Below, one piece after another: positions 1-62,680 of a DNA stretch of 64,000 bases. The DNA comes from Escherichia coli (GTDB taxonomy: Bacteria > Pseudomonadota > Gammaproteobacteria > Enterobacterales > Enterobacteriaceae), in assembly GCF_044647545.1 (NCBI RefSeq), contig NZ_CP172818.1; one strand, given 5' to 3'. Each line of letters opens with the position of its first letter. Position 1 is the first letter of the stretch. Position numbers and translations under genes: made by a program. The notes under the pieces were generated by a model. The model saw only the letters and a program-made list of their open reading frames with translations, searched no databases and was not told where the DNA came from.

Positions 1-627
1 GGGATCGTGCCGCGCGTTCCGCCTATCGACGGGATCGATCATCCGAAGGTATTGAGTTATCTCGATGTACTGCGCGACAAAGCGCCGGTGGGCAACAAAG
101 TTGCCATCATCGGTTGTGGCGGAATTGGTTTTGATACGGCGATGTATTTAAGTCAGCCGGGCGAATCCACCAGCCAGAATATCGCCGGGTTCTGTAATGA
201 GTGGGGAATCGACAGTAGCCTGCAACAGGCCGGAGGTTTGAGTCCGCAAGGCATGCAAATCCCCCGTAGCCCACGGCAGATTGTGATGCTCCAGCGCAAA
301 GCCAGCAAACCAGGACAAGGGTTAGGCAAAACCACCGGCTGGATCCATCGCACCACCCTGCTCTCGCGCGGCGTGAAAATGATCCCAGGCGTAAGTTACC
401 AGAAGATCGACGATGACGGGCTGCATGTAGTGATCAACGGCGAAACGCAGGTACTAGCAGTGGACAATGTGGTGATCTGCGCGGGGCAAGAGCCAAACCG
501 CGCATTGGCGCAACCGCTGATTGATAGTGGGAAAACCGTGCATTTAATTGGCGGCTGCGATGTAGCTATGGAGCTGGACGCACGGCGGGCAATTGCCCAG
601 GGAACACGGCTGGCGCTGGAGATTTAA
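1..627 (+). CDS. fadH: 2,4-dienoyl-CoA reductase, C-terminal part (5' end lies outside the window)
   Basis: ORF open from window start; translation ends ...DARRAIAQGTRLALEI, matching the FadH C-terminus; followed by a palindromic REP-like hairpin. Confidence 0.85.
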   Translation, partial: GIVPRVPPIDGIDHPKVLSYLDVLRDKAPVGNKVAIIGCGGIGFDTAMYLSQPGESTSQNIAGFCNEWGIDSSLQQAGGLSPQGMQIPRSPRQIVMLQRKASKPGQGLGKTTGWIHRTTLLSRGVKMIPGVSYQKIDDDGLHVVINGETQVLAVDNVVICAGQEPNRALAQPLIDSGKTVHLIGGCDVAMELDARRAIAQGTRLALEI

Positions 628-671: not shown

Positions 672-1088
672 TTAATCAATAAACAAGGCGGGAGAAATAC
701 CGAATCGCGTTGCCAGTTTTTTAGCGTGTTCCAGCGTTAATTTCCTCTTCCCGCTCAAAACGCGTGACACCATCGATTTACTGCCTATTTCCGGAAGATC
801 GGAAAGGGTTAAACCATATTGATCCATAAGGGTACGAATCACGGCTATACCGCCAGGCATGGCTTGAGCCATGGCATTAAATTCCACAAATTCGGGCGCT
901 GATTCTTCCCACGCGGTTATTTTGGCACACACCAGATCCAGTAAGGGGTTTTCAGGATCGTTGAGCAGCAGATGATCTACCAGTTCCAGCGCCTGGGTGT
1001 ATTGTTCCTCGTTCTGAATACCCGCCAGAAAAGGTGCCACAGCAGTTAGCTTTTCTCCTGCTTGCAAGATGTCGGCAATCGCAATCAT
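672..1088 (-). CDS. higA: HigA antitoxin (XRE-type HTH)
   Basis: 138 aa ORF; start ATG overlaps the stop of the upstream toxin reading frame (ATGA). Confidence 0.85.
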   Translation of the reverse strand: MIAIADILQAGEKLTAVAPFLAGIQNEEQYTQALELVDHLLLNDPENPLLDLVCAKITAWEESAPEFVEFNAMAQAMPGGIAVIRTLMDQYGLTLSDLPEIGSKSMVSRVLSGKRKLTLEHAKKLATRFGISPALFID

Positions 1089-1398
1089 TTTTTCCCCTTA
1101 GTACGATGAACGGCGGTAAAGAAATCGTATTCTTTATGCGTCATAACTTCACGTATGTAGCACTTTTGCGATTCAAAAAAGACCATTGCTACAACACGTA
1201 ATTCATTGCCCCGACATTGAAAACATAATGCTTATCCAGATATTTGAAGTTATCCAGAGAAGGGAATACTGCTTTTAATGACTCAGGTTTTTTGAAATAT
1301 CCCTTAGCAATCGTGTTCCCCAGAGCCACCAACTCCGTTTTATGTTGCGGGTATTTTTCCGCAGCATCTTTCAATGCTTTTTGAGTTATCAGGTGCAT
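1085..1398 (-). pseudogene. higB: HigB toxin (RelE/ParE-like) disrupted by a -1 frameshift
   Basis: N-terminal 66 residues in one frame (ORF 1189-1398, MHLITQKALKDAAEKYPQHK...), remainder (NELRVVAMVFFESQKCYIREVMTHKEYDFFTAVHRTKGKK) in a second frame ending in the ATGA overlap with higA; frames switch at a C4 run 1209-1212. Confidence 0.7.
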
Positions 1399-1682: not shown

Positions 1683-2819
1683 TTACCGACGACGCCCCAG
1701 CTTCACTGCTTTCAGCACCACAAATTTATTATTCGTGGCGATGGTGGTGCAGTTGCCGAAAATTTTCTTCAGTTTATGGAAGTAATCCAGGTGACGGTTG
1801 GCAACGATATACAGCTCGCCGTTGATTTTCAGGCAGCGGCGGGCGTGGTGGAACATCTCCCAGGCGACGTTATCGGTCAGCGCATGTTGCTGATGAAACG
1901 GCGGGTTGCAGAGCACAGCATTAAAACGGAAAGGCTCCACGCCGGAAAGCGCGTTGTTGATCATAAACTCGCAGCGATCCAGTGCCTCGGGCATGTTGGT
2001 TTCAACGTTCAAACGGCTGGAAGCAACCGCCATCGGTGATTCATCGACAAACACCACTTTCGCCTGCGGGTTTTTATCGAGCAATGTCAGGCCAATAACG
2101 CCATTACCGCAACCGAGATCGACAATCTCACCTTCGAGATTCTCTGGCAGATGTTGCATAAAGAAGCGCGCGCCAATATCCAGCCCGGTGCGGGAGAAGA
2201 CGTTCGCATGGTTGTGGATAGTCCAGTCAGTACCTTCCAGCTTCCAGCTAACGGTCTGCGGCGCATCGGCCAACGGCGGTTCGTTGAAGGTGCAGTTAAT
2301 CAGGCGCGCTTTCTTCCATGCCAGCGTGGTGGTGGTCGGACCGAGCACTTTTTCGAACAGTTCCAGTGTGGAAGTGTGAATGTCACGGGCTTTGGCACCG
2401 GCAATAATACGCGTATCTGGCGTGACCACTTTGCGCAGCGCACGCAGTTGCTGTTCCAGCAATGCCAGTGTTTTCGGCACTTTGATCAGCACCACACCCG
2501 GCTGTTGCGGGTAGTCGGCGGTGCTGTCGAGAAACTTCACGCTCGACTCATCAATCCCGTTGAGGCGTAAATTCTCGCGCGTGGCCAGTTCACTGATGTA
2601 TGAGTCACCAATGCTGTAGGGCTTATGTTCCGCCAGCGCACAGCTTAACGCACCAAAAGCATCATTCAGGATTAACACCAGGCCGCGGATCTCTGTGTCG
2701 TCCAACTGTTGCAGCAAATATTCATCCGCCGCTTCCCACGCCTGTAGCGGGTTAACGTCATCCGTCGCCGGAAAACGTTGTAGTGTCAGTGAACGGAAAC
2801 CGTTGTCTAAGTGGCTCAT
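1683..2819 (-). CDS. rlmG: 23S rRNA m2G1835 methyltransferase
   Basis: 378 aa ORF; class I methyltransferase motifs ([16 protein letters not shown]). Confidence 0.9.
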
Positions 2820-23545: not shown

Positions 23546-23931
23546 TCAAGAAAATGCCAGGAACGGAGAAACACAAAGCAACAAACCAGTGACGATAATC
23601 AGGTACAGAGACATCCCTTTGTATTTGTGCAATGCCGGTACTTTGTAAACCAGCCACGCCGGGATCAGGCACCCTACCATGCCGAAAATCGGGCTACAGA
23701 TAGAGGTGAAGCTCAACACCGGTGCGTTCAGTACGATGGCGCTCCAGGCCAGCAAAATGGCGAAAATCATGATGCCGCGCTGAACGAGATTTTCGTTAAT
23801 CTTCTCGGCAGGCATCTTGCGACGCAGGATGTTCATTACGATCCCTTGCGTTGCTTCGCGAAAGCCTAAATAGACGCCAAAAAACGCGGTCATTACTGCA
23901 AAGATATTGAGAATGACGCTGACCCTTTCAC
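23546..23931 (-). pseudogene. cyuP: 3' fragment of the cysteine transporter gene cyuP (yhaO); 5' part replaced by anomalous sequence
   Basis: Reading frame ends ...VSVILNIFAVMTAFFGVYLGFREATQG...LLLCVSPFLAFS; upstream of codon ~23931 the frame runs into G/P/W-rich low-complexity translation. Confidence 0.75.
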
Positions 23932-24645
<714 letters not shown>

Positions 24646-24893
24646 TTACCGAAAGCGTCAAAGAAAATGCTTATCTTATCGATCCAAAAATTAATTACAA
24701 TACAGATTTAAACATAGAGGATTCTAGCTCAGAGGAATTCCTTTCAGATAATACACTAGAGAAAGACGAAAATTCTCCTGACAATTGCTTTGAGGTCGTA
24801 AAATATAACACATATGAAGCTTATAACTCAGAGAAGCAATATTTTACCAGAGAGGACTATACGTATGATTACGACCTTTTAAATGCAATATAG
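24646..24893 (+). pseudogene. AT-rich 3' gene fragment, possibly the end of yhaC
   Basis: In-frame translation ...ENAYLIDPKINYNTDLNIEDSSSEEFLSDNTLEKDENSPDNCFEVVKYNTYEAYNSEKQYFTREDYTYDYDLLNAI*; position just upstream of the rnpB terminators; identity to yhaC not verified. Confidence 0.3.
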
Positions 24894-24949
24894 ACTTAAT
24901 AATTTCTTACAAAGTCTATTATTAATACCGTAGATATTTATTCATCTTA

Positions 24950-25025
24950 CTCCAAAAGCAAAAACCCGCCGAAGCGGGTTTTTATAAAGCTCCAAAAGCA
25001 AAAACCCGCCGAAGCGGGTTTTTAC
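24950..25025 (-). terminator. Tandem direct repeats each carrying a hairpin terminator downstream of rnpB
   Basis: Two copies of ctccaaaagcaaaaacccgccgaagcgggttttta (24950-24987, 24990-25025); on the minus strand cccgcttcggcggg followed by a T run. Confidence 0.7.
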
Positions 25026-25032
25026 GTAAAAC

Positions 25033-25409
<377 letters not shown>

Positions 25410-31670: not shown

Positions 31671-31693
31671 TTTCTTTTGGAACGTCCCTCGCA

Positions 31694-31720
31694 AAACATG
31701 GCCTTAGTGCCATGTTTTTA
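31694..31720 (+). terminator. Rho-independent terminator after garD
   Basis: aaacatggc-cttagt-gccatgttttt. Confidence 0.6.
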
Positions 31721-31818
31721 TTGTTTAAAGCCCCCACGACCATTAATAATGCATTTGCATTACCTTAGTTCAAGCTTATAATTTGAGCAGAAAACAGGCT
31801 GTAAAAGGACAGTGAATC

Positions 31819-32154
31819 ATGCCCGCTAATGCTCGCTCTCACGCTGTACTGACCACTGAATCAAAGGTCACGATACGCGGACAAACAACTATCCCCGCGC
31901 CAGTGCGTGAGGCCTTAAAACTGAAGCCAGGCCTGGACAGCATTCATTACGAAATTCTGCCTGGTGGGCAAGTATTTATGTGCCGACTGGGAGATGAACA
32001 GGAGGATCATACTATGAATGCATTTTTGCGTTTTCTGGATGCAGATATCCAGAACAACCCGCAAAAAACTCGTCCATTCAACATTCAACAAGGAAAGAAA
32101 CTTGTCGCTGGCATGGACGTCAACATTGATGATGAGATTGGCGACGACGAATAA
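31819..32154 (+). CDS. prlF: PrlF (SohA) antitoxin, AbrB/SpoVT-type
   Basis: 111 aa ORF; stop overlaps the yhaV start. Confidence 0.9.
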   Translation: MPANARSHAVLTTESKVTIRGQTTIPAPVREALKLKPGLDSIHYEILPGGQVFMCRLGDEQEDHTMNAFLRFLDADIQNNPQKTRPFNIQQGKKLVAGMDVNIDDEIGDDE

Positions 32155-32618
32155 TGGATTTTCCACAAAGGGTTAATGGTTGGGCGCTATATGCTCATCC
32201 CTGTTTTCAGGAAACCTACGACGCTTTAGTTGCCGAAGTCGAGACATTAAAGGGAAAAGATCCTGAAAATTATCAGAGAAAAGCCGCCACAAAGTTATTG
32301 GCGGTAGTCCATAAAGTGATTGAGGAGCATATCACGGTCAATCCATCATCACCGGCATTCCGTCATGGCAAGTCGTTAGGCTCTGGGAAAAATAAAGACT
32401 GGTCACGGGTAAAATTTGGTGCTGGTCGTTATCGTCTCTTCTTTCGTTACAGCGAAAAAGAGAAAGTCATCATTCTGGGATGGATGAACGATGAAAACAC
32501 GCTGCGCACCTACGGTAAAAAAACAGATGCCTATACCGTATTCAGCAAAATGTTAAAAAGAGGACATCCTCCTGCCGACTGGGAAACCCTCACCCGAGAG
32601 ACAGAAGAAACCCATTGA
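32154..32618 (+). CDS. yhaV: YhaV toxin (ribonuclease)
   Basis: 154 aa ORF immediately downstream of prlF. Confidence 0.9.
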   Translation: MDFPQRVNGWALYAHPCFQETYDALVAEVETLKGKDPENYQRKAATKLLAVVHKVIEEHITVNPSSPAFRHGKSLGSGKNKDWSRVKFGAGRYRLFFRYSEKEKVIILGWMNDENTLRTYGKKTDAYTVFSKMLKRGHPPADWETLTRETEETH

Positions 32619-32672
32619 TGGTATTCACAATGCCCGCCGAACGCATTCGTGTTGACCAGCGGGCACCCTTTC

Positions 32673-60512: not shown

Positions 60513-60711
60513 TGTAATATCCTTTCTCTTTCTTAGACAGTACCTTACGGCACTGGTGTTAATACCCGATCTTCTGCGCATCCTCGCGACTAATGACAAC
60601 CCTAACCCAGCCCAATGTGGGTAAAGCCTCTCATTAGCCGCGCGAACCTCTGCAACGGAAGATCATTCATAGCAACAATACATTAGTTTCCAGTGAATTG
60701 CTGCCGTCAGC
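60513..60711 (-). promoter_or_regulatory. pnp 5' leader (autoregulatory/RNase III-processed region by position)
   Basis: ~200 nt untranslated region between the rpsO terminator and the pnp TTG start. Confidence 0.45.
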
Positions 60712-60745
60712 TTGAAAAAAGGGGCCACTCAGGCCCCCTTTTCTG
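60712..60745 (-). terminator. rpsO rho-independent terminator
   Basis: Plus strand gaaaaaaggggccactcaggcccccttttc, a GC-rich stem flanked by A and T runs. Confidence 0.7.
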
Positions 60746-60758
60746 AAACTCGCAAGAA

Positions 60759-61124
<366 letters not shown>

Positions 61125-62597: not shown

Positions 62598-62680
62598 TGG
62601 CCTGATAAGACGCGCCAGCGTCGCATCAGGCAATCCATGCCGGATGCGGCGTAAACGCCTTATCCCGCATGGAACCCTAA
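62598..62680. repeat. REP element between infB and rbfA
   Basis: gcctgataagacgcgccagcgtcgcatcaggca ... gccggatgcggcgtaaacgccttatcc. Confidence 0.6.

What the first reader, a model, noticed from the sequence alone, without database searches (positions are those of the whole stretch)
31819..32618. Second type II toxin-antitoxin module (prlF-yhaV) is intact, in contrast to higBA
prlF (111 aa) and yhaV (154 aa) are full length with the stop/start overlap at 32154. The window therefore carries one intact and one toxin-inactivated TA pair, which is useful for interpreting whether the higB lesion is biological.
Basis: partly seen in the sequence, partly recalled or inferred. Interest (0 to 1): 0.25.

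Follow-up and report, generated by a model that had tools for sequence, protein, structure and literature searches.

The report
Intact, ordinary E. coli prlF-yhaV module
This is the well-known E. coli prlF-yhaV toxin-antitoxin gene pair, complete and essentially identical to the laboratory reference strain, so the finding is correct but ordinary.

Summary
prlF (31819..32154, 111 aa) and yhaV (32154..32618, 154 aa) are uninterrupted ORFs on the + strand, and they share one base in a TAATG stop/start overlap at 32154.

- **YhaV** is 154/154 identical to E. coli K-12 MG1655 YhaV.
- **PrlF** is 110/111 identical. The one change, Q39L, is a common natural allele: the exact 61-mer occurs in 1008 of 5159 complete genomes.
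- **Locus and upstream region:** the gene order is garD-prlF-yhaV-agaR, as in K-12. The whole 1002-bp locus is 100% identical to many ST648-type genomes, and the upstream promoter and palindrome are unchanged from K-12.
- **Fold:** an AlphaFold model of YhaV (pLDDT 96) matches RelE, HigB2 and PfiT toxins. The family's conserved arginines (R85, R94, R118) are present.

The contrast with higBA is also real. higB (1085..1398, - strand) carries a net 1-bp loss at a G-run, which leaves a 69-aa ORF. higA is intact. The same frameshift allele is in 58 complete genomes, where PGAP annotates it 'frameshifted', so it is inherited rather than a read error.

Nothing here is new: this is a textbook core-genome type II toxin-antitoxin module. 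The one oddity I saw lies elsewhere: 707 bp of G+C-rich junk at 23937..24643, where the closest genomes carry IS1.

The parts
31693..31718 (+). Intrinsic-terminator-like hairpin (AAAACATGGC-6 nt-GCCATGTTTT, then a T-rich tail). It ends the upstream garD transcript and so isolates prlF-yhaV as its own unit.
   Evidence: identical in K-12
31747..31762 (.). Perfect palindrome TAATGCA-TT-TGCATTA overlapping the -35 hexamer. Candidate operator for the PrlF-YhaV repressor complex (inferred).
   Evidence: Literature states that the complex binds a palindrome in the promoter upstream of prlF (PMC7781912). The exact operator sequence could not be checked because the Schmidt 2007 paper is not held.
31754..31782 (+). 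Sigma-70-like promoter: TTTGCA, 17-nt spacer, TATAAT (10 of 12 matches).
   Evidence: This is a consensus match only, but it is identical to K-12.
31805..31809 (+). Shine-Dalgarno-like AAGGA, 9 nt before the prlF ATG.
   Evidence: read directly
31819..32154 (+). prlF, antitoxin and autorepressor, 111 aa. Intact, with the Q39L polymorphism relative to K-12.
32154..32618 (+). yhaV, RelE-superfamily ribonuclease toxin, 154 aa. Intact and 100% identical to K-12 YhaV. Its start overlaps the prlF stop by one base (TAATG).
1085..1398 (-). higB pseudogene, the contrast case. A net 1-bp loss at the G-run 1209-1212 truncates the reading frame to 69 aa (ORF 1189..1398).
672..1088 (-). higA antitoxin, intact (138 aa, 137/138 identical to K-12).

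Best explanation
The region is the canonical chromosomal type II toxin-antitoxin operon prlF-yhaV of Escherichia coli, at its usual place between garD and agaR, and it is intact. The likely mechanism is as follows. A single sigma-70 promoter upstream of prlF drives a bicistronic mRNA. yhaV is translated by coupling through the TAATG overlap. PrlF has an N-terminal AbrB/MazE-like DNA-binding domain and an acidic C-terminal tail, and it binds and neutralises YhaV. The PrlF-YhaV complex represses its own promoter by binding a palindrome that overlaps the -35 hexamer. When PrlF is degraded, with Lon implicated in the literature, free YhaV cleaves mRNA during translation and arrests growth. YhaV is a RelE-fold endoribonuclease with conserved arginines. 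Shown here: gene integrity, identity to the characterised K-12 proteins, family membership, the RelE-like fold of the model, conserved synteny, and an unchanged promoter and palindrome. Inferred from the literature on the identical K-12 proteins: toxicity, neutralisation, autoregulation and the cleavage mode.
For: ORFs and overlap. Pfam and NCBIfam hits above curated cut-offs. YhaV is 154/154 and PrlF 110/111 identical to MG1655 b3130 and b3129. The gene order garD-prlF-yhaV-agaR-kbaZ matches K-12 and FDAARGOS_497. The 1002-bp locus is 100% identical to many complete genomes and is present in 5167 of 5426 genomes. The L39 allele 61-mer is exact in 1008 genomes. Invariant family residues, including R94 and R118, and near-invariant R85 are present. 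The AF2 model (pLDDT 96.3) matches PfiT, RelE, HigB2, RelE1/2 and YoeB with Foldseek probability near 1.0. Two distant YhaV homologues (34-37% identity) also sit directly downstream of a PF15937 antitoxin gene with overlapping stop and start. Promoter, palindrome and terminator. Literature on K-12 PrlF-YhaV covers the PrlF2-YhaV4 complex binding a promoter palindrome, ribosome-dependent frame-dependent mRNA cleavage, and loss of activity on replacing conserved arginines: PMC7781912 and PMC5408214.
Against: The PrlF Q39L substitution lies next to the predicted DNA-binding hairpin (the AbrB/MazE-type matches end at residue 38) and its effect is untested, although it is found in about a fifth of complete E. 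coli genomes. The operator assignment for the palindrome is inferred, not checked against the primary footprinting data. The reviews disagree on whether YhaV cleavage depends on the ribosome or not.
Confidence: 0.95

Rival explanations
1. The module is intact by sequence but functionally altered in this lineage. The PrlF Q39L change would weaken operator binding or toxin neutralisation, so regulation differs from K-12.
For: Q39L is the only amino-acid difference. It sits immediately after the stretch matched by the AbrB/MazE DNA-binding profiles, residues 15-38.
Against: The L39 allele is exact in 1008 of 5159 complete genomes, which is what a neutral polymorphism looks like. The toxin, promoter and palindrome are unchanged. 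A de-repressing or non-neutralising antitoxin next to an intact toxin would be strongly counter-selected.
Confidence: 0.04
2. The intact-versus-broken contrast is an assembly artefact. The higB frameshift would be a homopolymer miscall in a low-quality assembly, so the window really carries two intact TA pairs.
For: The lesion is at a G-run. The same window holds an obviously artefactual 707-bp junk stretch at 23937..24643 where related genomes have IS1.
Against: The exact 61-mer carrying the frameshift is present in 58 complete genomes from different laboratories and platforms, where PGAP marks higB as a 'frameshifted' pseudogene. An adjacent T-to-C substitution accompanies the deletion, which is not typical of a pure homopolymer miscall.
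Confidence: 0.02
3. The two ORFs belong to something other than a toxin-antitoxin system, for example PrlF acting mainly as a regulator of protein export or Lon activity, with YhaV as an accessory.
For: prlF was first isolated as a protein-localisation suppressor locus, and its overexpression activates Lon (PMC7781912 and PMC5408214). Deleting yhaV costs about 8% growth rate in LB in one study (PMC5960147), which hints at a physiological role beyond addiction.
Against: Those phenotypes come from the prlF1 allele or from overexpression, and they are compatible with the TA model. The RelE fold, the conserved arginines and the conserved antitoxin-toxin gene pairing in distant taxa all fit a toxin-antitoxin pair.
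Confidence: 0.03

Closest known systems
E. coli K-12 PrlF-YhaV (b3129-b3130), type II toxin-antitoxin system (Schmidt et al. 2007, cited via PMC7781912 and PMC5408214)
   Same: Same locus, gene order, lengths and one-base overlap. The toxin is 100% identical and the antitoxin 99% identical. The promoter, palindrome and upstream terminator are identical.
   Different: PrlF Q39L, one substitution in the intergenic leader (31739), four synonymous substitutions in yhaV and two more in the spacer downstream of yhaV.
RelE/ParE-superfamily ribosome-associated mRNA endonuclease toxins (RelE, HigB2, YoeB, PfiT)
   Same: The predicted YhaV core is a beta-sheet packed on helices and superposes on RelE, PfiT, HigB2 and M. 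tuberculosis RelE1/2, with Foldseek probability near 1.0 and target-normalised TM 0.6-0.79. It has conserved basic residues on the sheet.
   Different: YhaV is about 60 residues longer, with an N-terminal strand pair and extra helices. Sequence identity is only 9-16%. It pairs with an AbrB/MazE-type antitoxin and not a RelB-type one. There is no solved YhaV or PrlF structure in the PDB by sequence.
E. coli HigBA (ygjN-ygjM) at the fadH-rlmG intergenic locus
   Same: Also a chromosomal type II module with a RelE-superfamily toxin, in the same window. Its antitoxin is intact.
   Different: The gene order is reversed, toxin first. Here the toxin is a frameshifted pseudogene. higB is absent from about half of complete E. 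coli genomes: the 61-mer matches in only 2823 of 5426. B2 strains are reported to keep only an orphan higA (PMC7232551). By contrast prlF-yhaV matches in 5167 of 5426 genomes.

Membership tests
PrlF-YhaV type II toxin-antitoxin system | Antitoxin gene directly upstream of the toxin gene on the same strand, adjacent or overlapping (bicistronic layout) | tested here: met
   prlF 31819..32154 and yhaV 32154..32618, with a TAATG overlap. The same layout is seen in two distant homologue loci.
PrlF-YhaV type II toxin-antitoxin system | Antitoxin matches the PrlF family profile above the curated cut-off | tested here: met
   PF15937 139.5 bits (cut-off 32). NCBIfam NF007429 equivalog 168 bits (cut-off 125).
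PrlF-YhaV type II toxin-antitoxin system | Toxin matches the YhaV family profile above the curated cut-off, over its full length | tested here: met
   PF11663 181.9 bits (cut-off 35), profile positions 1-137 of 138. 154/154 identical to K-12 YhaV.
PrlF-YhaV type II toxin-antitoxin system | Toxin arrests growth and the cognate antitoxin neutralises it | not testable with these tools
   Known for the identical K-12 protein from the literature.
PrlF-YhaV type II toxin-antitoxin system | Autoregulation through a palindromic operator in the prlF promoter | tested here: inconclusive
   The palindrome TAATGCA-TT-TGCATTA overlaps the -35 hexamer and is identical to K-12.
RelE/ParE toxin superfamily (YhaV) | RelE-like alpha/beta fold | tested here: met
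   The AF2 model has pLDDT 96.3. Top Foldseek PDB hits are all RelE/ParE-superfamily toxins, with probability up to 1.00 and E-values from 2e-4.
RelE/ParE toxin superfamily (YhaV) | Conserved basic (arginine) residues needed for RNase activity | tested here: met
   R94 and R118 are invariant and R85 and K87 are at least 90% conserved in 67 diverse homologues, and all are present here. The literature reports that replacing two conserved arginines abolishes activity (PMC5408214). I could not confirm which two.
AbrB/MazE (SpoVT-AbrB) swapped-hairpin DNA-binding domain (PrlF N-terminus) | Match to the domain profile above the curated cut-off | tested here: inconclusive
   TIGR01439 scores 26.6 bits against a cut-off of 28.3. 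PF04014 scores 17.5 against 24.7. Both cover residues 15-38 and fall just below cut-off. This is consistent with the literature assignment but is not independently established here.
HigBA type II toxin-antitoxin system (contrast locus) | Full-length toxin ORF (104 aa in K-12) | tested here: not met
   A net -1 frameshift leaves a 69-aa ORF, with only the first 63 residues native. PGAP flags the identical allele as a frameshifted pseudogene.

The most novel reading that the evidence does not exclude
In the ST648-type lineage, retention of an unaltered prlF-yhaV alongside fixation of a higB frameshift, with higA kept, could reflect different selection on the two modules. YhaV would then provide a housekeeping benefit, consistent with the reported growth cost of deleting yhaV. 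HigA would persist as an orphan regulator. The PrlF L39 allele might also tune autoregulation. None of this is excluded by the data, and none is indicated beyond the simple presence and absence pattern.
Probability: 0.05. Interest if true: 0.25.

Novelty: already known. Interest (0 to 1): 0.05.

Why it matters
It matters little beyond correct annotation. The result confirms that this window carries a reference-like, presumably functional PrlF-YhaV module. It also confirms that the neighbouring higB lesion is a genuine, lineage-inherited pseudogenisation and not a sequencing error. This fits the known picture: prlF-yhaV belongs to the conserved E. coli chromosomal TA set, while higB is frequently lost or decayed.

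Tried and rejected
- **Primary paper.** I tried to read Schmidt et al. 2007 (PMC2699681) to get the exact operator and the two mutated arginines. It is not held.
- **Residue search.** A full-text search for 'YhaV' with 'R94A' found nothing. The identity of the two catalytic arginines therefore rests on conservation, not on a citation.
- **Solved structures.** Sequence searches of the PDB with YhaV and PrlF gave only chance-level hits, such as ThreeFoil at E = 0.002 over a 30-residue repeat and Cse2 at E = 0.29. No solved structure exists by sequence.
- **NCBIfam.** It has no model matching YhaV.
- **Non-coding RNA.** Rfam at gathering thresholds finds no RNA family in or next to 31671..32672, so I rejected a hidden non-coding RNA reading.
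- **Antisense ORFs.** The antisense and out-of-frame ORFs in the region, 31915..32166 (-) and 32018..32176 (+), overlap strongly supported genes and have no independent support. I treated them as spurious.
- **higB as a sequencing error.** I considered this and rejected it on the 58-genome recurrence.

Full report
**Observation.** The ORF table lists an ATG-initiated 111-aa ORF at 31819..32154 and an ATG-initiated 154-aa ORF at 32154..32618, both on the + strand. The raw sequence reads ...GACGACGAATAATGGATTTT.... The prlF stop TAA is at 32152-32154 and the yhaV ATG at 32154-32156, so the two genes share one base.

**Identity.**
- Pfam assigns the first protein to PF15937 PrlF_antitoxin (E = 4e-41, 139.5 bits, cut-off 32). 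It assigns the second to PF11663 Toxin_YhaV (E = 8e-54, 181.9 bits, cut-off 35, covering 137 of 138 profile positions).
- NCBIfam's equivalog model NF007429 for PrlF is passed at 168 bits against a cut-off of 125. NCBIfam has no YhaV model.
- A megablast of 31671..32672 against 5426 complete E. coli genomes finds the locus in 5167 of them, almost always once per genome and on the chromosome. Identity is 100% to many genomes of the ST648 type, including FDAARGOS_497, MS6198, 'ST648' and ECONIH1, all annotated prlF/yhaV.
- In both K-12 MG1655 and FDAARGOS_497 the gene order is garD-prlF-yhaV-agaR(-)-kbaZ, as in the window.

**Integrity against the reference.** YhaV is 154/154 identical to MG1655 b3130. 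PrlF is 110/111 identical to b3129, and the only change is Q39L. The 1002-bp DNA alignment has no gaps and 9 substitutions:
- one in the leader (31739);
- the Q39L codon;
- four synonymous changes in yhaV;
- two in the spacer downstream of yhaV;
- one in the 3' end of the convergent agaR gene.

The L39 allele is not private. The exact 61-mer around it is found in 1008 of 5159 genomes. The prlF1-type 3' insertion known from the literature is absent, because the C-terminus is identical to wild type.

**Family-level checks.**
- An exhaustive phmmer search found 980 representatives at E ≤ 1e-3.
- An alignment of 66 full-length, 34-56%-identical homologues has P64, R94, F96, W110, N112 and R118 invariant. 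G72, W83, R85, K87, L95, I106, D113, D125, Y127, F130, P140 and L146 are at least 90% conserved. All are present in the window's protein.
- The review literature says that YhaV carries highly conserved arginines and that replacing two of them abolishes activity (PMC5408214). I could not retrieve the primary paper to confirm which two.
- An AlphaFold2 model built on this alignment is very confident (mean pLDDT 96.3, pTM 0.91).
- Its best PDB matches by Foldseek are exclusively RelE/ParE-superfamily toxins: PfiT 9w3a, E. coli RelE 4fxh and 4fxe, HigB2 5ja8, M. tuberculosis RelE1 and RelE2, and YoeB. Probabilities reach 1.00 and target-normalised TM is 0.6-0.79.
- No YhaV or PrlF structure exists in the PDB by sequence.
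- Two distant YhaV homologues from metagenome and genome contigs are each preceded by a PF15937 antitoxin gene whose stop overlaps the toxin start. The bicistronic, overlapping architecture is therefore a family trait.

**Regulatory anatomy.**
- Downstream of garD there is a terminator-like hairpin at 31693..31718.
- A sigma-70-like promoter, TTTGCA-17-TATAAT, lies at 31754..31782.
- A perfect palindrome, TAATGCA-TT-TGCATTA, lies at 31747..31762 and overlaps the -35 hexamer.
- An AAGGA Shine-Dalgarno lies 9 nt before the prlF ATG.
- All of these are identical to K-12.
- The literature reports that a PrlF2-YhaV4 complex binds a palindrome in the promoter upstream of prlF (PMC7781912). Assigning that role to this particular palindrome is my inference.

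**Mechanism.** The steps shown here are sequence integrity, family membership, the fold and the operon layout. The remaining steps are inferred from work on the identical K-12 proteins:
1. prlF and yhaV are co-transcribed and their translation is coupled.
2. PrlF neutralises YhaV.
3. The complex represses its own promoter.
4. On antitoxin loss, YhaV cleaves mRNA in a translation-dependent, frame-dependent way.

An older report describes ribosome-independent cleavage in vitro.

**The higBA contrast.**
- rlmG is at 1683..2819 (-) and the end of fadH at 7..627 (+), so the window begins at the K-12 higBA locus.
- higA (672..1088, -) is 137/138 identical to K-12.
- In higB, K-12's GTTGGGGGC is GTCGGGGC here, with the G-run at 1209..1212. 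This net -1 frameshift ends the frame after 69 codons, of which 63 are native.
- The exact 61-mer with this lesion occurs in 58 complete genomes, and PGAP labels the gene 'frameshifted'. The K-12-type 62-mer is exact in 1999 genomes.
- Only about 2825 of 5426 genomes have higB at all. This agrees with a report that B2 strains retain only an orphan higA, while yhaV/prlF is among the few type II modules shared with conserved context (PMC7232551).
- The higB lesion is therefore biological and lineage-inherited. That conclusion comes from its recurrence across genomes, not from the state of prlF-yhaV.

**Other readings considered.** Rfam finds no RNA family in the locus. The antisense and out-of-frame ORFs overlapping prlF and yhaV have no support. 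A functional effect of Q39L cannot be excluded, but it is unlikely given the allele frequency.

**Verdict.** This is a known, core-genome toxin-antitoxin module in its reference state. Novelty: already known. Interest: very low.

**Seen in passing.** Between higB and prlF the window is 30.6 kb, against 42.9 kb in K-12 and 47.5 kb in FDAARGOS_497. In the five closest genomes, a 768-bp IS1 joins a truncated cyuP to a yhaC remnant next to rnpB, and the tdc operon is missing. The window has the same junctions. In place of IS1, however, it carries 707 bp of 75% G+C low-complexity sequence (23937..24643) that includes a run of about 31 G and has no similarity to IS1. This is most simply an assembly or consensus artefact over a multicopy element.

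Noticed in passing
window 23937..24643: 707 bp of junk-like, 75% G+C low-complexity sequence (C331 G200 A118 T55, with poly-C tracts and a run of about 31 G). It sits exactly where the five closest complete genomes, such as NZ_AP022098.1 (L005 5939..6706), carry a 768-bp IS1. The flanks match at 99-100% and the interior has no similarity to IS1. It looks like an assembly or consensus artefact over a multicopy IS, not biology.
   Followed up: partly
window ~23546..24890 (junction between the cyuP remnant and the yhaC remnant, next to rnpB at 25033..25409): Relative to K-12 and FDAARGOS_497, the window lacks the 5' part of cyuP, the whole tdc operon, yhaB and most of yhaC. This IS1-associated deletion is shared by only about 5 of 5426 complete genomes. 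The higB-to-prlF distance is 30.6 kb here, against 42.9 kb in K-12 and 47.5 kb in FDAARGOS_497.
   Followed up: partly
window 1085..1398 (-), G-run at 1209..1212: The higB frameshift (K-12 GTTGGGGGC becomes GTCGGGGC) is shared exactly by 58 complete genomes and annotated 'frameshifted' by PGAP. higB is absent altogether from about 48% of complete E. coli genomes, while higA here is intact.
   Followed up: yes
literature (PMC7781912, Fig. 2 legend): The review labels PDB 2KHE as 'YhaV monomer'. In the PDB listing, 2KHE is the Thermus thermophilus RelE solution structure (rank 16), and no PDB chain matches YhaV by sequence. There appears to be no experimental YhaV structure.
   Followed up: partly
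window 24944..25027: Two tandem copies of a roughly 35-nt unit (CTCCAAAAGCAAAAACCCGCCGAAGCGGGTTTTTA), each a terminator-like hairpin, lie just beyond the 3' end of rnpB, which is on the - strand. I did not examine them further.
   Followed up: no
window 25033..25409 (-), 60571..60742 (+), 60972..61086 (-), 62599..62669 (-): Rfam gathering-level hits are RNase P RNA (rnpB), SraG sRNA, the rpsO (S15) leader and naRNA4. All are expected for this part of the E. coli chromosome.
   Followed up: no
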